Positions 51,703-64,000 of a stretch of DNA of 64,000 nucleotides are shown piece after piece. Numbering within the stretch: position 1 is the stretch's first letter; the number at the start of each line of letters is the position of its first letter. The position numbers and the translations under genes were made by a program. Source of the DNA: Shigella phage Ag3; the sequence record FJ373894. One strand, given 5' to 3'. Under the pieces are notes generated by a model. The model ran no database searches. It was given only the letters and a program-made list of their open reading frames with translations, and was not told where the DNA came from.

Positions 51703-52030
51703 TGACGTTCCCCTTACCACTCTGGAGATCAGATACCGTAATCCGCAGAGTTCGCACGTCGTCGGACAGACTGCTGCTATTGAGTTTTAATTCAGCAACG
51801 TTCTGCTTGACGTAGTTGACGTCTGTGTTCAATACAGCGATCTTCTCACTCATATCGTTGACTTTGACAAGGATCTGGTCAACCTTGTTGGAATCCCGCT
51901 CAACCACATCAAGACGGTTTTCGAACTTACCCATCATCCAAACAACCGAGCCAACAGAGACTATCGCCGCCGTCAGCACCCCGGTGAGGATCGCTTTCAC
52001 ATCGATCACAGTGTTAGTTTGAGTTGTCAT
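51692..52030 (-). CDS. membrane-anchored coiled-coil protein (spanin/holin-like, tentative)
   Basis: One TM helix (ILTGVLTAAIVSVGSVVWMMG) followed by heptad-like region. Confidence 0.35.
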   Translation of the reverse strand: MTTQTNTVIDVKAILTGVLTAAIVSVGSVVWMMGKFENRLDVVERDSNKVDQILVKVNDMSEKIAVLNTDVNYVKQNVAELKLNSSSLSDDVRTLRITVSDLQSGKGNVNGR

Positions 52031-52262
52031 CTTGGCCTCCTGACGGGAGTTCAATCCCGAGGTGTTCCGCCATGAGTTGTACCGTCGCTGTCAGTTGATC
52101 GATCTGCGCTGCCTGCGCTGCAATAGTTCTGTCCTTTTCTTCCTGATTACGACGGGCGTTCAGAGCCGCTAAACCAGCAGCGCTGTCTGTGCAGATGATA
52201 GCCCCAGGGCAAGAGCTACTTCTCATCATCGATGCATGCCCCTGTACTTTTACACCACGCAT
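52014..52262 (-). CDS. hypothetical small protein
   Basis: 82-codon ORF, position only. Confidence 0.3.
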   Translation of the reverse strand: MRGVKVQGHASMMRSSSCPGAIICTDSAAGLAALNARRNQEEKDRTIAAQAAQIDQLTATVQLMAEHLGIELPSGGQDDNSN

Positions 52263-52312
52263 GATAATATCCTCTGTTAATGGCGGGGTTGCCCCCGCCT
52301 TGGTAATACTAC

Positions 52313-55300
52313 TTATGCCAGAGCAATCAAACGGAAATCTTTGAATGATGGCGGCGCTGTACGGTTGCCTCTCACCAGCAGGCGGATCTTCAGGCCAACG
52401 AAAGGATTGGTGCTGTCCACAGTCTTGTCATATTCGTATTCAAAGAATGTAGAACCGTCATTGACCAGAGGGGATGTTGGAGTCACAGTTTCCCATGCCA
52501 CGTCATCCATCTCCTGACCAGCGCGGAGCAGTTTCACCTGTACAGTCATTGAAGACTGAGAAGGTAGCATCGCACCGAAGTACTGTTTCAGAGTGGTGCA
52601 AGGGTTATCGAATCCGATATCCTTGGTCACATAACTGAACACGTCTTCAAACGGATCCACCCCGTAGGTGTTGAAGATGATAGTGAAATCATCTCCATCA
52701 ATCATCGGAGCCGTGTACACGTTGCTTTCGTTACGCGTCATTGTCGCCCGCACCTGGAAGTCACCCACTTGGCGATAGATGCCTTCCGTCGACAGAGACA
52801 CGTCCGTATCGGATTCGAACTCAGCCCAATCAGAGAATGAGTTGGAGGTCGCATCGCGGTAACGGTATTCCAGTTTCAACACAGAACCTTCCAGGGCTGA
52901 ATTGGTGACGCTTGCGTAGAACATGTCTACCAAGTAGTTGCCCAGGAAAGAAGCCTCTTCACCACCAATCTGCCCGTCGGAGTCGGCGTTGGAACTCAGA
53001 ACAAATTTGAACGTCGTGAACGTCGCGTCTGTCACAGTGTGTTGGGCGTTCAGTTGCTCAGGAGTGAAACCACAACCACCCGTCAGACCAGACAGGGTAA
53101 CACTTTCACCCGCAGTCAGGCCATGCCCCGGCGCGTACACTGTAACAGTTGAAGAACCGTTGACACATTTCACGGTGTTCAGACCCAGAGGGCGGATCTT
53201 CGGACCGACTTTAGCATCGAAGGTCACGATGTTTGAACCAGCGGAGAAGTTACAGCGATACACACGGAACTTCATATCGGCAGTCTGGTTTGGAGTCCAA
53301 GTCGTGCCGTTGGAAGACGTGAAGAACACACCAGTGTACGGCTGCTTGGCGATGTACTCGTTGGTCAGCAAGTTCTTTTTGCCCATCTCTGCGATGTATG
53401 CGTTGTAGTCCTGAGTGTTGGCCAGGAGCACGATCGCGAACTCAGTCTGCGCCTGCAGATACACAGGATAATCAAACTTGAACATCGTTGGTACAGAAGA
53501 GTCTGTGGAGACGGAAACTTCTGATGGGTTCAAAGTCTTACGAGTGACCACAGTCGTCGCAGGCAGGCCATTACTCATCTCACGGATTTCCAGAGTAATC
53601 GGGATATCACGGGACTTGGTGGAGAAGAAGACTTCAATCCCTTCGATGTACTCGCCACCAATATTGGTAGCAACCATGAAGGATTGAGCAATCGGGTCTT
53701 TCCACTTCGCAACTTCAACCGTCTCCGTTTTGTTTTCGGTGGACTTGGTCGCAGTGTAACCCAGGACGCGAGTGTTGACATAGGTCTTCTGAATGCCCTG
53801 TTTCTTACCGAAGGATTTGTGAACCGCTTCAGCATTGGTCAGGGTATCGTCAGCAGACTTGCTGTCCACAGGACTATCAGTCAGACGGAAGACGTTGTCG
53901 CCCGTGTTGAACTTAACAGTCTCGTTCTGAGGAACTGCGAACACGCCTTTGATGTTGCCGTTGGCGTCAGTATTCAACGCACCACCCAGGGAGCCGCCGT
54001 TGGGTGTACAGTACGCGCTAACATCGCGTCCAGAGAAGAACGGATACACGCGAGTAAACGGACGCAGGCCTGTGGCTTCGAAGTTGATGTTCGTTTTGCG
54101 CATGTATGGGATAACCTGCGTTTCAACGATCTGCTCGCCAGTCAGGGTAGTGGTCGTCTTGTCGGTGTACGTGTACGTGGTGACGTCACGGGTAGACACA
54201 GTCGTGCGGTAGCGGTAGCCCCACCATACACCGCCTGCGCCATGCGGTTCCCACACACGCTCAGACACGGAAACAGTACGCCATGTGCCATACACAGAAC
54301 CTTCTTTGATCGCGCCGCGTGTGTTGATCGTTTCGTTGATCACACGTGGAGCAACATAGTAGTTCTCGAACCAGTAGTCGGTGGTCGGGTTCAGCTTCAG
54401 GAAACCTTCCCAGTTGAATACCGCATATGGGTTCACGTTGATGGTCGTGGTCGCATAATCCTGGCGCACAGAGATCTCACGGGTGTAGTTGCATACAACC
54501 ATGCCATCCTGAACGTTGTTCCAGCCCACTGGCGTCAGGTCAACCGCATTCTGCTGAACGAACGGGCGTAGGCGACCATTGTCAGTGTCGATTGAACCTA
54601 CCCAGTCAGCAGACAAATCGTCGATCAGACGGAAGTCTTTGAACGGGTCGGCAGCGATACCGTTTTTGAAGCGCGGGTTGCCAGTGATCGGGTCGAACAC
54701 CTGCTGAGTCATAGCTGAAGATTCCAGCTGTGACAGTGAGGTGTAGTATTCAACATTGGAGATACGGGTCTCCAGTTTACCGATATCACGCATCGTGTAA
54801 CGACGGTTGTCGATGGTACGAATCTGAATATCGTCGATGTTGGCCGTGTAAGGCGGGATCATCAATTCGTACAGACGCATGCCGTTGTCTGGGATCGCAG
54901 GCGAAGCCAGGTTGTTGGAACTCACACCACGCGCAACGTTAAACACGCCGTTGTCGGCCAGATACACAGCATCAATACGAGGCAGATAGTACTCCGCATC
55001 GAGGACGATAGCAGTGTTCGGGCGAACCATATCAGTGTCGGAAGCACCGCTGGTGATCTTAGGACGGAAGTCCAGGCAGTCTGCCAGGCCATACACAGTA
55101 CCAGAACTGGACGAAACATAGTTCGGAATGTCTGGGTAATCGATGGAAGAATAGGAATCCGCTGTGAAGAAATCACCAGAGCTGTGAGCGAAATACTGAT
55201 ACACCACCGTGAACGTCCCTGAAATGGCTCCAGTGCCCGATAACAGGTTAGAACGATAGTATGCAGCATCACGCTGGCCGCCGTCCAGAGTGAAGTTAGA

Positions 55301-57151
55301 GGTGACGTCAGCGCCACTTGCATTCTTCACGCTGACCAGCTTGTAGCCGTCGTGGTTGTTCAGCTGTACGCTGGCCGCCGAAGTGAACGTCACAGTCTCG
55401 GTGACTTCGGTAACAGTCTTGGTCTTGATCGTCGCTGTGGTGCGGACCATCAGTGCCAACAGGTTGATAGACTGGTTGGCGTACCCCGCACCCAGGGAAA
55501 TCTGCAGTGCTGAACCGACCGGAGTACCAGTCAGGGACAGTCCCGAAGAGATATCAAACTGAGCTGCAGTGCCGTCTGCCTTCGCCGCTGAGTACAAAGA
55601 GAATTCAGGGCTGAAGCTGTAACCCAGAGGAGCAGAGATAGAGCCTGCGCCTGCCGCGTTCAACGTGATCTTGTTTGACCGCAGGACGGTGTAGTTGATG
55701 TCGATGGTCCCCGTAGGAGCCAGCGTCTTCACACCAAATACAGGCAGAGGGAAGATCAGGTCAATTGCTGAACTCTGGCTGAACTGATTAGACTCCAGTT
55801 CGCAAGAGAACATTGTTGTACCGCTTTCTTCGTATGCAACTTTGGTGACAGTACCCATGTCCCCAGTGACAACGAGGTCGCGCATATACAGACGGAATTC
55901 CGCTCCAGAACGTTCTGCTGAAATCAGGAGGGCAGTGGCCTGGACAGCGCTGGATGCGTTCAGGAACTTGTAACGGATTGTGCGAGAGACAACCGGAACC
56001 CCTTTGGAGTTCTTGGACACCAGATAGTTGCCAGTCGCAACAGCCACAGGGTTGTTGTTCAGGGTATCGGTGTCACGGGCTTTATCAATAGTGACCAGCT
56101 CTTCGCCGAGGTTTTCGATACGACGGCCACGAACGTAGGAGATCCCTGGCTTCATGACCGCCACGAATTTGCTTGCGTCACCACCTTCGGCCGGAGTGTA
56201 CACGCCGCCGTTGTTGTTCTCTTTCAGATGTTCACGCAGGTCGATCTGGTGAGTAGAGACGTTGTAATCCCCGTTGGTCTCATAAGTGCGCTGCGCCATA
56301 CTGTCTTCGAGGATGTTGTAGGTGGACTGGGTCACCATGGACTGAATGCGCCCGTCTTTGACTTTCGCCAGTTCAACGAAGTCGGCCACTTCTTCATCAT
56401 AACCGTAGCGAGACAACACGAGGTCGATGCGCAGGCGATGCGCACCAGGGGCTTTGGAGTTCGGAGTACCCTGAGCATTGGAGAACAGACTTTCGTCTTC
56501 GGTTTCGGTGACGATGGTCTCTGTCACTTTGAATCCAACGCGGTGTGAGGTGGAGTTGGATGCGTTGTCGACGATCAGGGTAGCAGCCTCAACATCCAGG
56601 AACATGCCGCGGACGAAGTAAACGCCTTTGGTCATGCGCGCAACAATAGAGCCACCGACAGTAGCAGCCACACCATAGCCGACACGAATGAAATTATCGT
56701 TCACGTCGTAGGTGTTGAAGTACAGGTTGTCACCAGCTTCGAAACCGTCTGAACTACCACTCTCAGTCATCTCTAAGATGGCGTACATTGTATCCGGCTC
56801 AGCCAGGTAACGTTCCAGAGACAGGACGCGCGCTTTCGCATTGTTGTCCTTACCCAGAACATAGAGTTCGGAGATACCTTCCAGATCGGTGAACTCGCTA
56901 CCACCAGCCAGAGTGAACTTCATGGACACTGCGGTGTTGGTGATTGTCAGGCCGCCGGGGATAACCATCGAACCGTCTTTGAACAGATGGTTCCCGAGTT
57001 TCTCCAGCTGATCCTGGAAGATGGTCTGCATCTGGTTCAGTTCACGCGTCTGAACTTTGATAGGAGCCGGACGGAACAGGATGCGTGAAAAACGCTTCTC
57101 TGGATTCCAATCATCCCAGTATGGGCGGCGGTTGAGGTTCATTTCTTGCAT
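52313..57151 (-). CDS. large tail fibre/tail-spike protein (about 1612 aa)
   Basis: Start at 57151 (GGAG RBS; track extends to 57289); late motif CTAAATATC upstream; Thr/Ser/Gly/Asn-rich repetitive beta-type sequence. Confidence 0.7.
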   Translation of the reverse strand: MQEMNLNRRPYWDDWNPEKRFSRILFRPAPIKVQTRELNQMQTIFQDQLEKLGNHLFKDGSMVIPGGLTITNTAVSMKFTLAGGSEFTDLEGISELYVLGKDNNAKARVLSLERYLAEPDTMYAILEMTESGSSDGFEAGDNLYFNTYDVNDNFIRVGYGVAATVGGSIVARMTKGVYFVRGMFLDVEAATLIVDNASNSTSHRVGFKVTETIVTETEDESLFSNAQGTPNSKAPGAHRLRIDLVLSRYGYDEEVADFVELAKVKDGRIQSMVTQSTYNILEDSMAQRTYETNGDYNVSTHQIDLREHLKENNNGGVYTPAEGGDASKFVAVMKPGISYVRGRRIENLGEELVTIDKARDTDTLNNNPVAVATGNYLVSKNSKGVPVVSRTIRYKFLNASSAVQATALLISAERSGAEFRLYMRDLVVTGDMGTVTKVAYEESGTTMFSCELESNQFSQSSAIDLIFPLPVFGVKTLAPTGTIDINYTVLRSNKITLNAAGAGSISAPLGYSFSPEFSLYSAAKADGTAAQFDISSGLSLTGTPVGSALQISLGAGYANQSINLLALMVRTTATIKTKTVTEVTETVTFTSAASVQLNNHDGYKLVSVKNASGADVTSNFTLDGGQRDAAYYRSNLLSGTGAISGTFTVVYQYFAHSSGDFFTADSYSSIDYPDIPNYVSSSSGTVYGLADCLDFRPKITSGASDTDMVRPNTAIVLDAEYYLPRIDAVYLADNGVFNVARGVSSNNLASPAIPDNGMRLYELMIPPYTANIDDIQIRTIDNRRYTMRDIGKLETRISNVEYYTSLSQLESSAMTQQVFDPITGNPRFKNGIAADPFKDFRLIDDLSADWVGSIDTDNGRLRPFVQQNAVDLTPVGWNNVQDGMVVCNYTREISVRQDYATTTINVNPYAVFNWEGFLKLNPTTDYWFENYYVAPRVINETINTRGAIKEGSVYGTWRTVSVSERVWEPHGAGGVWWGYRYRTTVSTRDVTTYTYTDKTTTTLTGEQIVETQVIPYMRKTNINFEATGLRPFTRVYPFFSGRDVSAYCTPNGGSLGGALNTDANGNIKGVFAVPQNETVKFNTGDNVFRLTDSPVDSKSADDTLTNAEAVHKSFGKKQGIQKTYVNTRVLGYTATKSTENKTETVEVAKWKDPIAQSFMVATNIGGEYIEGIEVFFSTKSRDIPITLEIREMSNGLPATTVVTRKTLNPSEVSVSTDSSVPTMFKFDYPVYLQAQTEFAIVLLANTQDYNAYIAEMGKKNLLTNEYIAKQPYTGVFFTSSNGTTWTPNQTADMKFRVYRCNFSAGSNIVTFDAKVGPKIRPLGLNTVKCVNGSSTVTVYAPGHGLTAGESVTLSGLTGGCGFTPEQLNAQHTVTDATFTTFKFVLSSNADSDGQIGGEEASFLGNYLVDMFYASVTNSALEGSVLKLEYRYRDATSNSFSDWAEFESDTDVSLSTEGIYRQVGDFQVRATMTRNESNVYTAPMIDGDDFTIIFNTYGVDPFEDVFSYVTKDIGFDNPCTTLKQYFGAMLPSQSSMTVQVKLLRAGQEMDDVAWETVTPTSPLVNDGSTFFEYEYDKTVDSTNPFVGLKIRLLVRGNRTAPPSFKDFRLIALA

Positions 57152-57185
57152 TTTGATGCTCCATCGATAGGTGCCATTATAGAGA

Positions 57186-57194
57186 TATTTAGTA
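57186..57194 (-). promoter_or_regulatory. late promoter motif ACTAAATATC (large fibre gene)
   Basis: About 35 nt upstream of ATG 57151, downstream of terminator 57219-57243. Confidence 0.5.
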
Positions 57195-57214
57195 TACAGC
57201 CAACCGAGGAATAG

Positions 57215-57245
57215 AAAGAAAAAGCCCCTCATCTGAGGGGCTTTG
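57215..57245 (-). terminator. rho-independent terminator after tail spike 57250..59034
   Basis: AAAAGCCCCTC-atctg-AGGGGCTTT followed by T-rich tract. Confidence 0.7.
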
Positions 57246-57249
57246 TCTA

Positions 57250-59034
57250 TCAAGCGGAAGCATTCCATTGACCAGCATTGATCACCCATGTGCTCGTTAC
57301 TTTTGAATACACCATTTTCACGAGATTCATTTTCGTGGTGGCGGTGTTGGCACCAGTCACATCGACAGGGACACCCGCTATGCTCAATGAAGCAATGTTT
57401 GAACCTCTCAGTAAAAACGTCAGCTCCATACCATCATATGGCGTACCGGTAAATGCGATGTTGGAACCAGAAGAAACGTTTCTTCGATAGCACCCATAAC
57501 CGCTGTTTATGTCGACAGAGTCAGTTGTGAGCTGTAATGGCAATTTTCCACGACTTAATTTACATGCCGTTACAACGCCGAGATCATCAATGCCTCGACT
57601 TGCGCCCCAACGTGCGATGTTGACTATGTGGCCAGTCACACCAGCGTCTTGCGCACCACCAATGTCGAAGAAACCTCCAGCCCTTGTTCCCCATATCGGC
57701 TCATCAATTAAGCTGTTGGTGGAGTTGGTTATACTATACCCATGCGCGAGGGTTCCTTGGCTTGGGGAAGAGTGTGTACAATCTCGGAATGTGGCATCTT
57801 GAGAACCACTGATGCGGACATCAGAGATACTATTGTTCTCATAATACATTCCATACACCTTAGTTCCCTTGGCCTGATCCAAGAATCCATATTTCGTGGT
57901 ATTCTGGCTGAATCCGTTAACAAAACAGACTGCTTCTGTAGGGAATGTTGTGGTATAATCCCAAGAAGTCCCGCCGTCGGTGGAGTGTCTTACGATAATA
58001 CCATAATCCGGCATATCCACTTCCGGAGCACCAGAATAACCATCAAACCCTGTTATAACGATAGCATTGGCTCCGTTCTGTACTATTAACCGACTCGAAC
58101 CAGCCCCACCACCGATAACCTCACAACCGTCTATCTTCAATCCATAACACAAAGTCCCTATCTCTATCCCGATATTATTAATGGCTGTGCCCATGTCCAC
58201 CCACATCATATCTAGATGACCATGGTTCCTCCAATATTTGGCTCTGAAAGCGACGCAACCCGTTTTACCATTCAACGATATCCTGATATTGTGTAATTTG
58301 CAGTTTCTCACTGCATTCCCACCAGAACGAGAAGGATCAATCGTGAGTACACCAACGTTGTTTTCACCAGCCAAGAATAATGCGCCGGAATGTGCATAAA
58401 TTTCAGAGTTAGGATAAAACGCCAACGCCTGGCCAGTTACCGTATAGTTGCCAGGAAGAAACTGGAATGTCCCACCCTGGGATAATTTAGTTTGTATAAG
58501 AGACTGAGACATCGAAGGGTCGATAACAGTTAGACGATAAAACCCAGAGTATAACTCATCTCTTAATGCATCTGGATCCAATTTCACCCAGTTAGAACTT
58601 GACAATCCACCAGTATTGGCAATGGTGCCACCAGCGTTTACAGATTTGGGTAAAGTCCCACCCCAACGGTAAAGACTTGTACCATCAGAAACGACTTCAT
58701 TTCTTACACGTATCGTGAACCCCGAATCGAAGTTTTCGACCAAAGTTACAAATTCCTTCCGAAGTACTGCAAGAACCCCCAGGTCTACGGTGCCCGTATT
58801 GTGTACGAGAATGCCGTCTGCCATGCTGGTGATGGTAGCGCCAGCAGGCAGGTTAGAAGGCAGAGCATAGGAGCGCTGGGGCACCTTGTCGTAGATCACC
58901 TTATAACCAGTCAGGGTGGATCCTGGTTTAGCATACAGAACCTCGGACTTCTTGCACCCGAACTTGCGTGCAATAGAGTCCTTGTTGGTCTCTTTCGAGA
59001 CCGTACCTTTCGGCTGTGAAAATTGCGGATTCAT
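57250..59034 (-). CDS. tail-spike protein (MNPQFSQPKG N-terminal anchor type)
   Basis: Shares N-terminus with 61698..63719 product; Gly/Asn/Ser-rich beta-helix-like body; late motif CAACTAAATAAGCC upstream. Confidence 0.7.
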   Translation of the reverse strand: MNPQFSQPKGTVSKETNKDSIARKFGCKKSEVLYAKPGSTLTGYKVIYDKVPQRSYALPSNLPAGATITSMADGILVHNTGTVDLGVLAVLRKEFVTLVENFDSGFTIRVRNEVVSDGTSLYRWGGTLPKSVNAGGTIANTGGLSSSNWVKLDPDALRDELYSGFYRLTVIDPSMSQSLIQTKLSQGGTFQFLPGNYTVTGQALAFYPNSEIYAHSGALFLAGENNVGVLTIDPSRSGGNAVRNCKLHNIRISLNGKTGCVAFRAKYWRNHGHLDMMWVDMGTAINNIGIEIGTLCYGLKIDGCEVIGGGAGSSRLIVQNGANAIVITGFDGYSGAPEVDMPDYGIIVRHSTDGGTSWDYTTTFPTEAVCFVNGFSQNTTKYGFLDQAKGTKVYGMYYENNSISDVRISGSQDATFRDCTHSSPSQGTLAHGYSITNSTNSLIDEPIWGTRAGGFFDIGGAQDAGVTGHIVNIARWGASRGIDDLGVVTACKLSRGKLPLQLTTDSVDINSGYGCYRRNVSSGSNIAFTGTPYDGMELTFLLRGSNIASLSIAGVPVDVTGANTATTKMNLVKMVYSKVTSTWVINAGQWNASA

Positions 59035-59077
59035 AAGAATCTCCTGTTGTTTATTCTCGATGGTATGCGCAACGGCT

Positions 59078-59086
59078 TATTTAGTT
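59078..59086 (-). promoter_or_regulatory. late promoter motif CAACTAAATAAGCC (tail spike)
   Basis: About 45 nt upstream of ATG 59034. Confidence 0.5.
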
Positions 59087-59203
59087 GTCGGCGAGTCCAG
59101 GTATGCCGCCACCGAATATGTTGCTGGTGAACGCGCAACTGGATTGGCTTATCGAACAGACTGGAACAAAGCGCGTTATCAGGTCTGACATGGACGAATG
59201 CGA

Positions 59204-59230
59204 CTGAAGAAAAGGTCCCTTTCGGGACCT
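59204..59230 (-). terminator. rho-independent terminator after tail spike 59236..61512
   Basis: AGGTCCC-tttc-GGGACCT followed by TTTTCTTC on minus strand. Confidence 0.7.
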
Positions 59231-59235
59231 TGACT

Positions 59236-61512
59236 TTAGTTCTGAATCAACACGGCATTGTACGATAGTGGAAAATCACCAGAAGTTCCTGAACGGGTAA
59301 ACTGGTAGTTAGACCCAGAAACACCAGCAGCGACAGACGCCAACTGACTCGCTGAAGTGGCTGTCACCGCAATGCTACGGCCAGATACCAGGCTAACTAT
59401 ACCGACAGCGGCAGTAACGGACCCAACGCCATTCGGGATAGTAACTAACCCGACTTGCTTGTCCGGGTGTGTCGGGGAGTCATAATGGTAGAACTTACAC
59501 GAAGCTCCACCCACAAAAACCTGCCCGTAAAAGTAACAATTTTTTGTTGTTACGCTAGAGCCACCAGTTTGGTTATCTAAAACAGTAATTCCCAGTGGCT
59601 TATTTGCCAGGAATGTACAATTTTCCGCAGTTACTCCAACTACAGAGTTCACTAAAAGGTCTCCCTGCTGTGCTGCATCAATGTCATTGTTCTGGAAAAG
59701 GCAATTCACAAGCTTTGGTCTTGCCGGTACTAGGCCACCTTCTTTAATAATCTCAAGACCAAAGTAACGGCTGTCAGAGAATTTAACACCTGTAGCCATA
59801 AACTCATTACAAGAACCCTGAATTACCACACAAGATTTATTACCGCTGCGGTTGCTGCTGTAATACCCGTTTGTTAATTGTAAATACTGAGTATTAGTCG
59901 CTCTCAGTGCAATACCGGTGGCAAGGTCTGACATGACGTCAGTCAGCCATATCCACCGGCAGTTAACTATCTCTATAGCTGCGGTGCCTAAAGTGTTATC
60001 ACCACAGGCGTAGAATCTATCGCCTAGCAGCTCAATACCCTCTATGTTCGTGCTCACATGAGAGCTGTTTTCGGTTATGAACAGCCCGCATTTACACCCA
60101 TTGAATGTATTCTGGTTAAATCGAGTGTTAATCTGTCCCCCACCAAGTACAACACCGTATGTACTGGCAGCGAATCTGTTGAACCTGAAATCAAGCTCTC
60201 CAGCCCCATAACCGCCGGGTGCATCTACGCAATATTTAAGGAAGGCAAAAGAACAATTTTCAACTGTAACCAAAGGCGCTTCGATTCGTATACCAGTTGA
60301 TGTGGATTCTACGGTAACTGACTGAATCGTAAAGTCCGCAAGTCTTGCAAATTCATGAGTAACCTTGAAACATGTATCTCCGTCATTTTCAGGGCAGAAT
60401 GTCGTGTTGAGCTTGCCCGCTCCGATAAGATTGGCGGGGCTATCAATAACAATATCTTTTACGAAATATTTCTCCGTTGCCGCCGGGACAAATACTGTAT
60501 TAGACGCTGTAGAGGCGAGCTTAGCTGCGGCCAATGCGGCATTGATGGCCTGTGACCATGTATTAGACCCAGTTTTATAGTCGGCGGCATTGAAATAGAC
60601 GGCATGGCGGGCGTTAATTATAGCCTGCTCTACAGTAACACCAGAAGAAGTCCCGACTAACGTAGCCCCGGAGCTTGCCGCTAAATCGTTTCTTAAATTT
60701 GGGTCCGTTTGTGGAGTCCAGTCGGCAACAGCAACAGGGTTGGTACTTGCTGCGATTACATGCGGCAATGCACCACTCCAGGAATACCAGGTCTTACTTA
60801 CCGGGTCATATACCACTTTGTCACGGTCATTAATTGTTAAAGTGCCGCCTACGCTAAAAGTTAAACCAGAGTCAGCGTAGCCATTTTCAATAGCCCAGTT
60901 GAGTTTTAACTTGATCAAATCATCACCAACAGAGTCTAAACTCTGTTGCACCGTTTGCCCCGACGTAGTTCCAACAAGGCTTGCCCCATTATCAGAAGCC
61001 AACGCCAGGTAATTTTGTTTTACGGACATTTCTGACACGACCCAAACTCCAGCCGCAGGCGAACCTGTGAGGAAACTCACAACTCCTGTTGTGCTGTTGT
61101 AGCTGTAGTTGACACCAGGAACCTGGAACTTCCCGTCAACATACAGAGACTGTACGCCGTAGGTTGTGAAGTCTGGCGTGAAAGTAGTCTCGTTACCGTC
61201 CGCCTGAAACTTGTAGATTCTGATCCCGTTTTCATAATCTTCTGGGGACAGGATCTTGTCAAACAGACAGTACACTACATCATCAGCCTCTAGTGCTCGA
61301 CCGAGGTTGACTGTGTTGCCATCGATTTCATAGTTGTCGACAGGAACCTGAACACCACCATTGATAGTGATGAAGCCCGTAACGGGATAGAACGGGAGGG
61401 AGATAAACGTCTCTCCACCCGTTGCGGTATAAGTGTATGGAATCTGGTGTGGTGCTGTTACAACCGCTCCAAAGATGCTCTCGACGTTTCTGGTCATTTG
61501 AAGATACCCCAT
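59236..61512 (-). CDS. tail-spike protein (distinct N-terminal domain)
   Basis: 758 aa; Gly/Asn/Thr-rich beta-helix-like body; late motif CGCTAAATACCCC upstream. Confidence 0.7.
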   Translation of the reverse strand: MGYLQMTRNVESIFGAVVTAPHQIPYTYTATGGETFISLPFYPVTGFITINGGVQVPVDNYEIDGNTVNLGRALEADDVVYCLFDKILSPEDYENGIRIYKFQADGNETTFTPDFTTYGVQSLYVDGKFQVPGVNYSYNSTTGVVSFLTGSPAAGVWVVSEMSVKQNYLALASDNGASLVGTTSGQTVQQSLDSVGDDLIKLKLNWAIENGYADSGLTFSVGGTLTINDRDKVVYDPVSKTWYSWSGALPHVIAASTNPVAVADWTPQTDPNLRNDLAASSGATLVGTSSGVTVEQAIINARHAVYFNAADYKTGSNTWSQAINAALAAAKLASTASNTVFVPAATEKYFVKDIVIDSPANLIGAGKLNTTFCPENDGDTCFKVTHEFARLADFTIQSVTVESTSTGIRIEAPLVTVENCSFAFLKYCVDAPGGYGAGELDFRFNRFAASTYGVVLGGGQINTRFNQNTFNGCKCGLFITENSSHVSTNIEGIELLGDRFYACGDNTLGTAAIEIVNCRWIWLTDVMSDLATGIALRATNTQYLQLTNGYYSSNRSGNKSCVVIQGSCNEFMATGVKFSDSRYFGLEIIKEGGLVPARPKLVNCLFQNNDIDAAQQGDLLVNSVVGVTAENCTFLANKPLGITVLDNQTGGSSVTTKNCYFYGQVFVGGASCKFYHYDSPTHPDKQVGLVTIPNGVGSVTAAVGIVSLVSGRSIAVTATSASQLASVAAGVSGSNYQFTRSGTSGDFPLSYNAVLIQN

Positions 61513-61529
61513 AGAGGATTTGCCAATAT

Positions 61530-61540
61530 GGGGTATTTAG
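61530..61540 (-). promoter_or_regulatory. late promoter motif CGCTAAATACCCC (tail spike)
   Basis: About 20 nt upstream of ATG 61512; same 18-mer as the uvsW copy. Confidence 0.5.
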
Positions 61541-61697
61541 CGAATGGATAAGAAGTCGCAGGACTACCCACTTGTTTTATCTGATTACGAATTTACCCAG
61601 GCTGATATCGTTAATCAGCGTAGCCACTATGTTTGCCAGTTGGGTGGTTGTTAACGTGTTCACATCACCACGCAATTGCTGGCTACAACAATGATTG

Positions 61698-63719
61698 TTA
61701 GCTTAGATTTAGACTAAACCCACCATTTGACTTGCTTATCATACCACGAACAGTTTTGTTGCCTCCACCGCTGTATTCGTCATATTGCATTTTGACATTT
61801 ACAGCGATGTTGGCGTCAATTGAATCCCATCCAGCAAAGTTCAGGAACACATTTCCGCTAGTGTCTACTGATATTGTTGGCGTGGCTGCTGTTCCTTTTG
61901 TGAACGTACTTTGCACTGAACCTTCCATTGTGCTTGCTGCTGGAGTTGTACCCATCACTAATGTTCCCTGCAATCGCCCATGCCATGCGCTAGAAACACC
62001 TGAAACCGGGGAGTTGGCTACAACATCAACCGTCCACAAACTTACGTTTCGGTACGTACTCACAGTGCCAATTTTAAAATTCCTGGAATCTCCAGCGGCT
62101 TTAATGAACAGCATTGAACCCGTAGCGCATTTACTTGAATCAGGCGCTGCACCTGCAGATGCAAAATCAGAGAATGTGCAATTATCAAATTTTACTTTGC
62201 TGTAATCGGTAGCTGTTAACTTAGCTTCTGGTGCATTAACATTTTCGAATTTAACTCCGCCATAGTTCGCCACTGCGCCTGTAAGCTGATTGGTATTGAC
62301 ATATACATCACCACCATTCAGCTTTCGGACCACCAGGTCACGACAGATAAATCCATTAATAGAATCGCCTGACGTCCAGTTATCGTTGGTGTTGAAGTTA
62401 AAGAACCATGCATGGTTACCAGAGTCTCCGCCGCCAAGTTCTATGCGTCCGGTGATCACAATATTTGAATAACCATAGCCACGCGGGTTATTATCTGCTA
62501 CAGACTCGTCAATCAGCTTTGTTGTGCCAATAACACTTCCCCAATTCCCCCCGACGACATCATAATTGATGGTTATGTTACGCATCAGCCCGGCAATCAT
62601 CGTCTCTGTTATGGTGCTGTCCCAACCCCAATCCAGCCATATTGGTGCTACGCGGTACGGAAGCGTGTAACGCCCTGTGCTACGATATTTGTAATTGACT
62701 GTAAGATTAGATATTTGATTATCCATGTTACCGTTATAGAAATACATTTTGATTGGCGTACCCTGTTGAGTATCAATGGCATCAACAGTTATCTGGCCAC
62801 CACCACAATTGTTCGTCAGAAAGAAATCACGACGGCAACCATTATTAACTGTATGGATGTCAACTACACCAACATTACCAAGGAGATGTGGATAGCGAGT
62901 GTCATTGTTCACACTGCGAGCAAAGAGATTTTTTACATTAGTACATTCGTAGCCTTGATAGCACTTGTTAGTCTTGCCAATAAATGTGAAATTATTGCAT
63001 CCATTCAGGCGCAGTGGGGTTAGTCCGCGTTTGTCATCACCGACATACTCAAGGGTGGAAGAAGCATCCACTTCAAACACCAGATTGGTGATATTCGTCA
63101 GGTCGAACACGCGCGTCAGGTCAAATGCACCGGAGTAAAGCAGGGTGTCCCTGATAACCAGTCCGCGAATTTCAAGGCAGTCCATATTACTTAAAGTAAA
63201 GATGGTACTAAGACCGCCACTACCAGGACCAAAGTTCACAACCTGGTCAAAAATAATTTCAACACTTTTTAGGTTGTTAGATGTGATGTAAGACTGCAAA
63301 GATTGCAGTGTACCGAATCGGGAGAAGTAAAGGACACGTTTGTTTACAACTGAATCAAGAGCATCTTTTACTGTAGATGATTCGTATCCGACAAGACTTG
63401 CCTTTTCACCCGTCAGCAGTTCAGAACCCAGCGTTTTGCTTTCAACGCTAACCCATGCTGAAGATGATACACCACCAGTTGATTGTGGTGTTGAGTTTTT
63501 GTTCACAGTTTTGGGCAAAGACCCACCCCAGGTATAACACTGGGCACCATTGATATGCCACACGGCGTCGGTTGCAGTCGTCACAGTAGCACCGTCTTCA
63601 AAACTACCTTCGACCAAATTAAGACCTAAATCCGACAAAGCCCGCCGCCACAATTCACGCGGGTTTTTGTTGATTTCTTTGGCTGTTGAACCTTTCGGCT
63701 GATTGAATTGCGGATTCAT
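61698..63719 (-). CDS. tail-spike protein (MNPQFNQPKG N-terminal anchor type)
   Basis: 673 aa; first about 20 codons about 75% nucleotide-identical to the 57250..59034 gene. Confidence 0.7.
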   Translation of the reverse strand: MNPQFNQPKGSTAKEINKNPRELWRRALSDLGLNLVEGSFEDGATVTTATDAVWHINGAQCYTWGGSLPKTVNKNSTPQSTGGVSSSAWVSVESKTLGSELLTGEKASLVGYESSTVKDALDSVVNKRVLYFSRFGTLQSLQSYITSNNLKSVEIIFDQVVNFGPGSGGLSTIFTLSNMDCLEIRGLVIRDTLLYSGAFDLTRVFDLTNITNLVFEVDASSTLEYVGDDKRGLTPLRLNGCNNFTFIGKTNKCYQGYECTNVKNLFARSVNNDTRYPHLLGNVGVVDIHTVNNGCRRDFFLTNNCGGGQITVDAIDTQQGTPIKMYFYNGNMDNQISNLTVNYKYRSTGRYTLPYRVAPIWLDWGWDSTITETMIAGLMRNITINYDVVGGNWGSVIGTTKLIDESVADNNPRGYGYSNIVITGRIELGGGDSGNHAWFFNFNTNDNWTSGDSINGFICRDLVVRKLNGGDVYVNTNQLTGAVANYGGVKFENVNAPEAKLTATDYSKVKFDNCTFSDFASAGAAPDSSKCATGSMLFIKAAGDSRNFKIGTVSTYRNVSLWTVDVVANSPVSGVSSAWHGRLQGTLVMGTTPAASTMEGSVQSTFTKGTAATPTISVDTSGNVFLNFAGWDSIDANIAVNVKMQYDEYSGGGNKTVRGMISKSNGGFSLNLS

Positions 63720-63765
63720 GTGAATCTCCTGTTGTTCTCATGAAGCCCCGAAGGGGCTTTATCAA

Positions 63766-64000
63766 TTAGAAGTTGCGAGACATCTCGAACCATATACCAG
63801 CTCGGCGCTGGAGAGTCATGATAGCCAAGCCACCGGAAGCCGTGGCGTTCACCCCACCTTTGAGGCGCATCACAGTACTATTGTGAGTGAGGACAACCCC
63901 ATCACCCATACGCAGGTTGATAATATCACCCGATTGTGCACCAGTGAAGTCGGTGATGGTTCCTGAAGCGATATACAGATTCGGACCAAACACCGCAGAT
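63766..64000 (-). CDS. C-terminal part of a protein running off the right edge (probable structural)
   Basis: Minus frame open from window end to stop at 63766; track ORF starts at first in-window Met (63993). Confidence 0.4.
   Translation of the reverse strand, partial: SAVFGPNLYIASGTITDFTGAQSGDIINLRMGDGVVLTHNSTVMRLKGGVNATASGGLAIMTLQRRAGIWFEMSRNF

What the first reader, a model, noticed from the sequence alone, without database searches (positions are those of the whole stretch)
52313..63719. Four-gene tail-spike/fibre module with paired N-terminal anchors
Four consecutive late genes encode 1612-, 594-, 758- and 673-aa proteins with Gly/Asn/Ser/Thr-rich beta-helix-like bodies, each with its own late promoter and terminator. 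Two share a near-identical N-terminus (MNPQFSQPKG / MNPQFNQPKG; first 60 nt about 75% identical), as expected for interchangeable receptor-binding modules on a common adaptor. Multiple enzymatic spikes predict polysaccharide depolymerase activity and broad or switchable host range.
Basis: partly seen in the sequence, partly recalled or inferred. Interest (0 to 1): 0.55.

Follow-up and report, generated by a model that had tools for sequence, protein, structure and literature searches.

The report
Known Shigella phage Ag3 tail-spike cluster
This is the already published tail-spike gene cluster of Shigella phage Ag3: three sugar-cutting tail spikes (a fourth lies just off the window) followed by a large conserved baseplate protein that is not a spike, so the finding is real but ordinary.

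Summary
The four ORFs exist, on the minus strand, with the stated sizes. All four products are exact matches to Shigella phage Ag3 proteins YP_003358661-64 (Agtrevirus, Ackermannviridae, published 2011). By synteny and N-terminal domains, the 673-, 753/758- and 594-aa genes are TSP3, TSP2 and TSP1 of the family's branched tail-spike complex. TSP4 lies upstream; only its last 77 codons are in the window.

The 1612-aa gene is not a spike. It is the conserved VriC/DUF4815 protein. It aligns along its length with a 1152-aa baseplate chain of Staphylococcus phage 812, most probably the tripod protein. It is 96-99% identical in phages of five host genera.

The shared MNPQF.QPKG N-terminus is real: 43/60 nt, and a 70-nt repeat at 79% that includes the ribosome-binding site. 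It marks the TSP1/TSP3 pair, which in the CBA120 model dock on paralogous XD3 domains of TSP4 and TSP2.

Beta-helix bodies are supported for all three spikes, by Pfam or by AlphaFold2 plus Foldseek. "Own late promoter and terminator" holds only in part: a CTAAATA motif precedes three genes, not TSP3, and canonical terminators follow only TSP2 and TSP1. Nothing suggests switching.

Verdict: already known, interpretation partly right, low interest.

The parts
63766..64000 (-). 3' end (last 77 codons plus stop) of the TSP4 gene. This is the fourth spike of the complex; its start lies beyond the window.
   Evidence: The open frame runs off the window end. The 77 aa are 100% identical to the C-terminus of the P46FS4 protein that runs across that genome's origin immediately upstream of its TSP3. 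Ag3 ORF213, 106.9 kDa, was found in virions by mass spectrometry (PMC3121705).
63743..63759 (-). GC-rich hairpin in the 46-nt TSP4-TSP3 spacer, with no U-tract. No CTAAATA motif is present here, so TSP3 is probably co-transcribed with TSP4.
   Evidence: about -11.7 kcal/mol for the spacer; followed by CAUGAG.
61698..63719 (-). TSP3 (673 aa; Ag3 YP_003358664). Layout: 19-aa N-terminal peptide, helix, a single tandem domain (Pfam Tail_spike_N at residues 37-92), beta-helix body from about residue 120. TD1 is missing.
   Evidence: Exact match to the Ag3 protein. Pfam. Residues 3-19 are 12/17 identical to CBA120 TSP3 residues 3-19. 99.1% identical to Gloob TSP3. AlphaFold2 pLDDT 75.7; Foldseek top hits are CBA120 TSP3/4/1, Acinetobacter phage spikes and the HK620 spike.
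61534..61540 (-). CTAAATA(CCCC) motif 37 nt upstream of the annotated TSP2 start. Candidate late promoter.
   Evidence: Conserved 43 nt upstream of TSP2 in MK-13, AV101 and P46FS4.
59236..61497 (-). TSP2 (753 aa as deposited; the ORF extends to 61512, 758 aa). Layout (758-aa ORF numbering): gp10-like XD2-XD3 adaptor region (about residues 6-183), a Tail_spike_N domain (213-259), beta-helix body.
   Evidence: Residues 6-183 align with CBA120 TSP2 (6w4q) residues 1-178, E 4.9e-74. Pfam Beta_helix 32.9 bits against a cut-off of 25.9. Exact match to Ag3 YP_003358663. Body residues 216-757 are 69% identical to a protein of the 43-kb Salmonella phage KKP 3828.
59212..59231 (-). Intrinsic terminator after TSP2 (AAGGUCCC-GAAA-GGGACCUU followed by UUCUUC).
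59078..59084 (-). CTAAATA motif 44 nt upstream of the TSP1 start.
57250..59034 (-). TSP1 (594 aa; Ag3 YP_003358662). Layout: N-terminal peptide, TD1 plus TD2 (residues 1 to about 165), beta-helix body (about 166-594).
   Evidence: Residues 1-163/175 align with the N-termini of phage B2 Gp48, G7C gp63.1 and CBA120 TSP1/TSP3, E 1e-39 to 7e-45. 98.5% identical to MK-13 and ChubbyThor TSP1. AlphaFold2 pLDDT 85.4. Foldseek hits are CBA120 spikes, and for the body AlgE4/AlgE6, the HK620 spike, GH87 and polygalacturonase.
57221..57244 (-). Intrinsic terminator after TSP1 (10-bp stem followed by UUUUUCUUUCU).
   Evidence: I1.
57186..57192 (-). CTAAATA motif 35 nt upstream of the VriC start. A sigma-70-like TTGGCT-16-TATAAT overlaps it.
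   Evidence: The identical context is conserved in MK-13, AV101 and P46FS4.
52313..57151 (-). VriC (1612 aa, 177.2 kDa; Ag3 YP_003358661 / ORF206). DUF4815 baseplate protein, homologous to a 1152-aa baseplate chain of phage 812 (probably the tripod protein). Not a tail spike.
   Evidence: Pfam DUF4815, 205 bits. PDB 9euf chain matched in four collinear stretches, E 5e-53. Computed mass 177.2 kDa equals the mass of Ag3 virion band A, identified with 36 peptides. 96-99% identical in phages of Dickeya, Enterobacter, E. coli, Salmonella and Shigella.
52282..52299 (-). GC hairpin after VriC (GGCGGGG-GCAA-CCCCGCC) with no U-tract.
63667..63736 (-). Copy 2 of the 70-nt direct repeat (ribosome-binding site plus the first 17-18 codons) shared by TSP3 and TSP1. 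Copy 1 is at 58982-59051.
   Evidence: D1, 79% identity.

Best explanation
The region is the distal part of the tail-spike (tsp) cluster of Shigella phage Ag3 (Agtrevirus, Ackermannviridae). It is transcribed on the minus strand in the order TSP4 (only its 3' end is in the window), TSP3 (673 aa), TSP2 (753 aa), TSP1 (594 aa), VriC (1612 aa).

By homology with the CBA120 model, each spike is a homotrimer with a conserved N-terminal assembly module and a variable right-handed beta-helix body that binds, and probably cleaves, one surface polysaccharide (O-antigen).

Assembly, inferred from CBA120: TSP4 anchors to the baseplate. TSP2 joins TSP4 through XD2-XD2 contacts. TSP1 docks on XD3 of TSP4, and TSP3 docks on XD3 of TSP2. 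The shared MNPQF.QPKG N-terminus of TSP1 and TSP3 belongs to this docking end.

Because the N-terminal modules and the upstream regulatory DNA are conserved while the bodies are not, homologous recombination swaps bodies between phages. Here TSP1 is the MK-13/ChubbyThor type, TSP3 is the Gloob type, and the TSP2 body is closest to a 43-kb Salmonella phage. Host breadth comes from carrying several specificities at once, not from switching.

VriC is a separate, host-independent baseplate component related to the tripod protein of Herelleviridae. It probably forms the baseplate 'prongs' and acts after the spikes have cleared the polysaccharide.

What is shown: gene identities, domain homologies, predicted folds, mosaicism, and VriC's presence in virions (from the literature). 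What is inferred: enzymatic activity, the docking partners in Ag3, the role of VriC, and the promoter function of CTAAATA.
For: Identity:
- All four proteins are exact matches to Ag3 entries.
- The closest genomes are the agtreviruses Gloob and MK-13.

Synteny: the order TSP4-TSP3-TSP2-TSP1-VriC-gp13-gp14-gp15-terminase-sheath is seen in MK-13, AV101 and P46FS4. It is described in PMC8432352, PMC10791037 and PMC11721090.

Domains:
- Tail_spike_N is present in all three spikes, and Beta_helix in TSP2.
- TSP2 residues 6-183 match CBA120 TSP2 XD2-XD3, E 5e-74.
- TSP1 residues 1-163 match the N-termini of CBA120 TSP1/TSP3, G7C gp63.1 and B2 Gp48.

Folds: the TSP1 model has pLDDT 85 and the TSP3 model 76. 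For both, Foldseek returns tail spikes and beta-helix carbohydrate enzymes at probability 1.00.

Modularity:
- The TSP1 and TSP3 bodies occur behind PF09008 (P22 head-binding), PF03906 (T7 fibre) and other N-termini in E. coli and Enterobacter prophages and in about 40-kb and 70-kb phage contigs.
- Conserved/variable boundaries fall just after the N-terminal modules.

VriC.

Host range of Ag3: PMC3121705.
Against: - No enzymatic activity, trimer state or docking contact was tested here.
- Spike body sequences have no match to any solved structure. PDB sequence hits cover only the N-terminal modules.
- Foldseek TM-scores are low (0.15-0.37) because the monomer models are multi-domain, so the enzyme class (hydrolase, lyase or esterase) is open.
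- Ag3 TSP3 lacks TD1, the domain thought to mediate docking in CBA120. How TSP3 binds TSP2 is unresolved even for CBA120 (PMC11721090).
- The identification of the 1152-aa phage 812 chain as the tripod protein is inferred from entry contents (9EUJ/9EUK) and chain counts. The paper text does not state it.
Confidence: 0.9

Rival explanations
1. One reading: all four genes, including the 1612-aa one, are beta-helix enzymatic tail spikes or fibres forming a four-spike module.
For: The 1612-aa protein is also Gly/Asn/Ser/Thr-rich (32%). It has a sub-threshold Phage_spike_2 hit at residues 1351-1421 (19.5 bits against a cut-off of 25). The 2011 Ag3 paper loosely called it a tailspike.
Against: It is DUF4815 at 205 bits and aligns collinearly with a phage 812 baseplate chain. 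It lacks Tail_spike_N, XD and Beta_helix domains. It is 96-99% identical in phages of five host genera, whereas true spike bodies differ between sister phages. The literature places vriC outside the tsp cluster. The real fourth spike, TSP4, is at the window edge.
Confidence: 0.04
2. The spikes bind polysaccharide but do not depolymerise it. They are either pure adhesins or deacetylating esterases, as in G7C gp63.1, phage B2/Moo19 and the ViI Vi-antigen spike.
For: The TSP1 N-terminal module is closest to the esterase-type spikes B2 Gp48 and G7C gp63.1 (PMC11654681). No catalytic residues were verified here. PfbA, a beta-helix adhesin, is among the fold hits.
Against: The homology to esterase spikes is confined to the N-terminal 165 residues. 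The bodies model as beta-helices resembling glycanase/lyase/epimerase folds, not SGNH esterases. Invariant acidic residues (E305, E399, D405) are present in the TSP1 body family alignment. All characterised Ackermannviridae beta-helix TSPs degrade their receptor (PMC11721090).
Confidence: 0.12
3. Ag3 TSP3, which has lost TD1, is not incorporated into the branched complex. It would be an orphan or vestigial spike, or attach elsewhere.
For: About 60-78 residues of TD1 are missing relative to TSP1 and CBA120 TSP3. It has no promoter motif of its own.
Against: The gene is intact. The same architecture is conserved at 83-91% in MK-13, SKML-39, P46FS4 and fGh-Ecl02. The TSP3-type 19-residue N-terminal peptide is retained. 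The ribosome-binding site is conserved with that of TSP1.
Confidence: 0.1

Closest known systems
Branched TSP1-TSP4 receptor-binding complex of Ackermannviridae (model: kuttervirus CBA120, orf210-213; also Det7, S117, AV101)
   Same: Same gene order next to vriC. Same N-terminal modules: XD2-XD3 in TSP2 and tandem domains in TSP1/TSP3. Beta-helix bodies. Mosaic exchange of bodies. This window is the Agtrevirus type phage Ag3 itself.
   Different: The body sequences are unrelated to any CBA120 or Det7 spike. Ag3-clade TSP3 has one tandem domain instead of two. The receptors of the Ag3 spikes have not been determined.
Tripod protein (gp119) of Staphylococcus phage 812 / Herelleviridae baseplates (PDB 9EUF, 9EUJ, 9EUK; PMC13433997)
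   Same: VriC shares DUF4815 and aligns collinearly from N- to C-terminus. Both are large baseplate proteins found in virions.
   Different: VriC is 460 residues longer, with insertions around residues 72-202, 381-711 and after 1309. The host is Gram-negative, and no LysM-like hook was detected. Copy number and attachment site in Ackermannviridae are unknown.
G7C gp63.1/gp66 and Shigella phage B2 Gp48/Gp49 tail-spike pairs (Schitoviridae)
   Same: The TSP1 N-terminal 165 residues are homologous to Gp48 and gp63.1 (E 7e-45 and 9e-43). The logic is the same: one spike docks on another spike or adaptor that carries a gp10-like domain.
   Different: Those are podoviruses with esterase bodies and two-component complexes. 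Here it is a myovirus with a four-spike complex and beta-helix bodies.
P22/HK620-type podoviral tail spikes
   Same: Right-handed beta-helix body. The Ag3 TSP1 and TSP3 bodies occur at up to 63% and 89% identity respectively behind P22-type head-binding domains in E. coli prophages.
   Different: Different N-terminal anchor: PF09008 there, against TSP-type tandem domains here.

Membership tests
Ackermannviridae tsp cluster / branched TSP complex | Cluster lies between vriC and the baseplate wedge genes, in the order TSP4-TSP3-TSP2-TSP1-vriC | tested here: met
   The vriC side and the internal order match MK-13, AV101 and P46FS4. The wedge side lies beyond the window end and could not be seen.
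Ackermannviridae tsp cluster / branched TSP complex | TSP2 carries gp10-like XD2 and XD3 domains at its N-terminus | tested here: met
   Residues 6-183 align with CBA120 TSP2 (6w4q) residues 1-178, E 4.9e-74.
Ackermannviridae tsp cluster / branched TSP complex | TSP1 and TSP3 carry N-terminal tandem domains (TD1, TD2) | tested here: met
   TSP1 has both: residues 1-163 align with CBA120 TSP1/TSP3. TSP3 has the N-terminal peptide and one tandem domain only; TD1 is missing. The review allows 'one or two' tandem domains.
Ackermannviridae tsp cluster / branched TSP complex | Right-handed parallel beta-helix receptor-binding body | tested here: met
   TSP2: Pfam Beta_helix above the cut-off. TSP1 and TSP3: AlphaFold2 models (pLDDT 85 and 76) with Foldseek probability 1.00 to tail spikes and beta-helix enzymes. 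TM-scores are low, so the fold class is supported but not the details.
Ackermannviridae tsp cluster / branched TSP complex | TSP4 with anchor domain plus XD1-XD3 | not testable with these tools
   Only the last 77 codons are in the window. They are 100% identical to P46FS4 TSP4.
Ackermannviridae tsp cluster / branched TSP complex | Homotrimers that assemble TSP4:TSP2, then TSP1 and TSP3, and cleave specific O- or K-antigens | not testable with these tools
   This needs biochemistry or structural work. It has not been reported for the Ag3 spikes in the papers read.
DUF4815 / VriC / Herelleviridae tripod protein | Pfam DUF4815 above the gathering threshold | tested here: met
   205.1 bits against a cut-off of 30.
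DUF4815 / VriC / Herelleviridae tripod protein | Collinear full-length homology to the solved phage 812 baseplate chain | tested here: met
   Four stretches in order: 4-71, 203-380, 712-1308 and 1453-1592 align with 3-69, 104-281, 393-949 and 1007-1130. Overall E 5e-53; the last stretch is weak.
DUF4815 / VriC / Herelleviridae tripod protein | Virion (baseplate) component forming trimers on baseplate arms | not testable with these tools
   Presence in virions is known from the literature: Ag3 ORF206, 177.2 kDa, 36 peptides. The computed mass matches. Location and stoichiometry are unknown.
Glycoside hydrolase / lyase tail-spike depolymerase | Identifiable catalytic acidic residues in a substrate groove | tested here: inconclusive
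   E305, E399 and D405 are invariant in the TSP1 body family. Their spatial arrangement was not examined. The TSP3 alignment is too shallow to be informative.

The most novel reading that the evidence does not exclude
In the Ag3/MK-13/P46FS4 clade, TSP3 has lost the whole TD1 domain yet keeps the 19-residue N-terminal peptide (MNPQFNQPKGSTAKEINKN). That peptide is 12/17 identical to CBA120 TSP3 residues 3-19 and is shared with TSP1. It is predicted to be disordered in both monomer models (pLDDT below 50). The reading this leaves open: this short peptide, rather than TD1, is the minimal and portable element that plugs TSP1- and TSP3-type spikes into the XD3 sockets of TSP4 and TSP2. That would address the open question of how TSP3 binds TSP2, and would give a very small tag for engineering new spikes onto these phages.
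Probability: 0.3. Interest if true: 0.35.

Novelty: already known. Interest (0 to 1): 0.1.

Why it matters
The practical value is correct annotation. The region holds three spikes plus a baseplate tripod-like protein, with the fourth spike off the window. It shows clearly how Ackermannviridae phages gain host breadth: they carry several exchangeable polysaccharide-specific spikes on conserved docking modules. That is relevant to phage therapy and to diagnostics for Shigella. None of this is new, because the genome (Ag3, 2011) and the cluster architecture (2019-2024 literature) are published.

Tried and rejected
- Literature searches for PDB codes (9EUF, 9D84 and others) and for DUF4815 gave nothing useful. 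The phage 812 link was made through entries 9EUJ/9EUK, which the paper lists.
- Two literature searches for the CTAAATA motif found no phage paper. I recall a similar motif being described for ViI-like phages, but that is unverified memory.
- The T4 late-promoter consensus TATAAATA is absent from 51900-64000.
- The generic sigma-70 and terminator scan was not enriched over shuffles: 15 against 13.9, and 13 against 11.0.
- PDB sequence searches with the full spikes matched only the N-terminal modules, so fold assignment needed AlphaFold2.
- I tried to infer the O-antigen specificity of TSP3 from E. coli prophage spikes. Eight complete genomes carry a copy at 73-82% nt identity, but the records give no serotype, so I dropped this.
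- I looked for invertible segments or long inverted repeats that could make host range 'switchable' and found none.
- I considered and rejected the 1658-aa start for VriC. The extension would span the TSP1 terminator and the CTAAATA motif, and a GGAG sits upstream of the 57151 ATG.

Full report
**Observation**

The stated coordinates hold four consecutive minus-strand ORFs:
- 63719..61698, 673 aa
- 61512..59236, 758 aa
- 59034..57250, 594 aa
- 57289/57151..52313, 1658 or 1612 aa

The 1612-aa start is the right one. A GGAG precedes the ATG at 57151. The 46-codon extension would run through the upstream gene's terminator hairpin and a promoter-like motif. The 1612-aa form is also the deposited protein.

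The two similar N-termini are real. MNPQFSQPKG and MNPQFNQPKG share 26/30 nt, then 43/60 nt (72%), decaying to about 50% by 120 nt. The repeat finder reports a 70-nt direct repeat at 79% identity that also covers the Shine-Dalgarno region. At the protein level the similarity is limited to residues 1-19 plus one later domain, and the 673-aa protein lacks about 60 residues in between.

Gly+Asn+Ser+Thr content is 32-38%, against 25% in the window's other long ORFs.

**Identity of the sequence**

Megablast places the region in Ackermannviridae. The agtreviruses Gloob and MK-13 are closest, but no record covers more than 70% of the query.

Exact-sequence look-up shows that all four products are identical to Shigella phage Ag3 proteins YP_003358661 to YP_003358664, on a 158,006-bp contig. 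The third is deposited as 753 aa, starting at Met6 of the ORF. The window is therefore phage Ag3 (phiSboM-AG3), published in 2011 (PMC3121705).

**What the genes are**

Annotated relatives show the transcription order: a large spike, then a spike of about 650-700 aa, a spike of about 760-930 aa, a spike of about 600-820 aa, the 1612-aa 'VriC', gp13-like, gp14, gp15, terminase and sheath.

The literature defines the tsp cluster as lying between the baseplate wedge genes and vriC. TSPs are numbered by N-terminal similarity to CBA120 (PMC8432352, PMC10791037, PMC11721090).

Domain evidence agrees with this.
- The 758-aa protein aligns at residues 6-183 with the XD2-XD3 region of CBA120 TSP2, E 4.9e-74. 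It is TSP2.
- The 594-aa protein aligns at residues 1-163 with CBA120 TSP1 and TSP3, G7C gp63.1 and Shigella phage B2 Gp48, E 1e-39 to 7e-45. By position it is TSP1.
- The 673-aa protein carries a single Tail_spike_N domain at residues 37-92. Its residues 3-19 match CBA120 TSP3 residues 3-19 at 12/17 identity. It is TSP3.

Upstream of TSP3, an open frame runs off the window end (63766-64000). Its 77 residues are 100% identical to the C-terminus of P46FS4 TSP4. This corresponds to Ag3 ORF213, 106.9 kDa, seen in virions.

So the window contains three spike genes and the tail of the fourth.

**The 1612-aa protein is not a spike**

It scores 205 bits on Pfam DUF4815 and has none of the spike domains.

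Its only solved relative is a 1152-aa 'DUF4815/ORF65' chain, present in 15 entries and 81 chains. The alignment runs in four collinear stretches from N- to C-terminus, E 5e-53. Entries 9EUJ and 9EUK belong to the Staphylococcus phage 812 baseplate study and contain core, wedge and inner tripod proteins (PMC13433997).

I infer that the chain is the tripod protein gp119. That protein forms 12 trimers on the baseplate arms and has carbohydrate-binding-module-like domains. The paper text does not give chain lengths, so this step is inference.

The computed mass of the window protein, 177.2 kDa, equals that of Ag3 virion band A (ORF206, 36 peptides). It is therefore a virion protein.

It is 96-99% identical in phages infecting Dickeya, Enterobacter, E. 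coli, Salmonella and Shigella. The spike bodies, by contrast, differ between sister phages. That pattern argues against an O-antigen-specific enzyme and for a conserved baseplate role. The 2024 review speculates that VriC forms the 'prong' structures under the baseplate.

**Body domains**

PDB sequence searches match only the N-terminal modules.
- TSP2 has a Pfam Beta_helix hit above the cut-off.
- For TSP1 I built a 40-sequence alignment. The resulting AlphaFold2 model has mean pLDDT 85.4. Foldseek returns CBA120 TSP3, TSP1, TSP4 and TSP2. For the body it returns AlgE4/AlgE6 epimerases, the HK620 tail spike, an alginate epimerase/lyase, GH87 and polygalacturonase, all at probability 1.00.
- For TSP3, the model has mean pLDDT 75.7. 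Foldseek returns CBA120 TSP3/4/1, Acinetobacter phage spikes and HK620.

TM-scores are low (0.15-0.37), as expected for multi-domain monomer models. The fold class is supported; the enzyme class is not settled.

**Modularity**

- TSP1 is 98.5% identical to MK-13 and ChubbyThor TSP1.
- TSP3 is 99% identical to Gloob TSP3.
- The TSP2 body has no close Ackermannviridae counterpart in the phage collection. It is 69% identical to a protein of the 43-kb Salmonella phage KKP 3828.

In the large protein database, the TSP1 and TSP3 bodies occur behind several different N-termini: P22-type head-binding domains (PF09008), T7-type fibre N-termini (PF03906) and others. These are found in E. coli and Enterobacter hormaechei prophages and on about 40-kb and 70-kb contigs. 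Eight complete E. coli genomes carry a TSP3-like prophage spike.

Nucleotide conservation with MK-13 and P46FS4 stops just after the N-terminal modules. It resumes in the upstream regulatory DNA of the next gene. This is the substrate for the homologous exchange demonstrated experimentally in S117 (PMC11414711; PMC11721090).

**Transcription signals**

No TATAAATA occurs in the region, and generic scans are at chance level.

However, CTAAATA occurs 11 times in the window, always on the coding strand, against 3.4 expected on both strands. None of 100 shuffles reached that count. Most copies lie shortly upstream of minus-strand ORF starts. In this region they lie 35-44 nt upstream of the TSP2, TSP1 and VriC starts; the window's sheath-gene and gp14-like sites are the counterparts of those found in the relatives.

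The motif is conserved 30-49 nt upstream of TSP4, TSP2, VriC, gp14 and gp18 in MK-13, AV101 and P46FS4. It differs from the T4 late consensus in one or two positions. Ag3 encodes gp55, gp33 and gp45 homologues (PMC3121705). I read it as a candidate late promoter, which is inference.

TSP3 has none in its 46-nt spacer and is probably co-transcribed with TSP4.

Canonical terminators (stem plus U-tract) follow only TSP2 and TSP1. The hairpins after TSP4 and VriC lack U-tracts, and nothing canonical follows TSP3.

**Mechanism**

From the CBA120 model as summarised in PMC11721090:
- TSP4 anchors to the baseplate.
- TSP2 binds TSP4 through XD2-XD2 contacts.
- TSP1 docks on XD3 of TSP4.
- TSP3 docks on XD3 of TSP2.

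The 'paired N-terminal anchors' are thus the docking ends of TSP1 and TSP3. They bind paralogous sockets on two other spikes, not one common adaptor.

[quoted passage not shown] That fits multivalent recognition. I found no invertible or diversity-generating structure, so 'switchable' is unsupported.

**A small open point**

In the Ag3/MK-13/P46FS4 clade, TSP3 lacks TD1 but keeps the 19-residue N-terminal peptide. AV101 TSP3 keeps the full TD1. The peptide has pLDDT below 50 in both models. It could be the minimal docking element, which bears on the unresolved TSP3-TSP2 interaction. This is a hypothesis only.

**Verdict**

The feature is already known: a published genome and the defining gene cluster of its family. 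Interest is low.

Noticed in passing
window 1679-61540, minus strand (11 sites: 1685, 2274, 31987, 35169, 40880, 41236, 46403, 50680, 57192, 59084, 61540); L001, L002, L003: CTAAATA(CC) occurs 11 times, all on the coding strand, against 3.4 expected. Most copies lie shortly upstream of gene starts. The motif is conserved 30-49 nt upstream of TSP4, TSP2, VriC, gp14 and gp18 in MK-13, AV101 and P46FS4. It is a likely late-promoter motif that the 2011 Ag3 paper did not report; that paper searched for TATAAATA.
   Followed up: partly
window 63766-64000 (-): The window ends inside the TSP4 gene. The last 77 codons are 100% identical to Salmonella phage P46FS4 TSP4, so Ag3 and P46FS4 share this receptor-binding end.
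   Followed up: yes
window 61498-61512 (-): The TSP2 ORF can start five codons upstream (MGYLQ-MTRN...). The deposited protein and all homologues start at the second Met (753 aa). A 758-aa version exists on one metagenomic contig.
   Followed up: yes
window 63560-63662 (-), TSP3 residues 20-53: Ag3-clade TSP3 replaces TD1 with a short helix. The helix-plus-tandem-domain segment (residues 16-123) is closest to residues 185-293 of Klebsiella K64-specific spike ORF41 (PDB 8x8m, E 1e-29). The N-terminus therefore looks chimeric.
   Followed up: partly
window 59236-60870 (-), TSP2 body: The TSP2 receptor-binding body has no close counterpart among Ackermannviridae in the phage collection. Its best match (69% aa identity) is in a 43-kb Salmonella phage, KKP 3828, which suggests exchange between phage families.
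   Followed up: partly
window 57152-57289 (-): A 46-codon in-frame extension upstream of the VriC start overlaps the end of TSP1. ChubbyThor's annotation uses a similar long form (1651 aa), which is probably a mis-annotation.
   Followed up: yes
window 57176-57203 (-): A good sigma-70-like promoter (TTGGCT-16-TATAAT, 10 of 12 matches) overlaps the CTAAATA motif upstream of VriC. Its significance is unknown.
   Followed up: no
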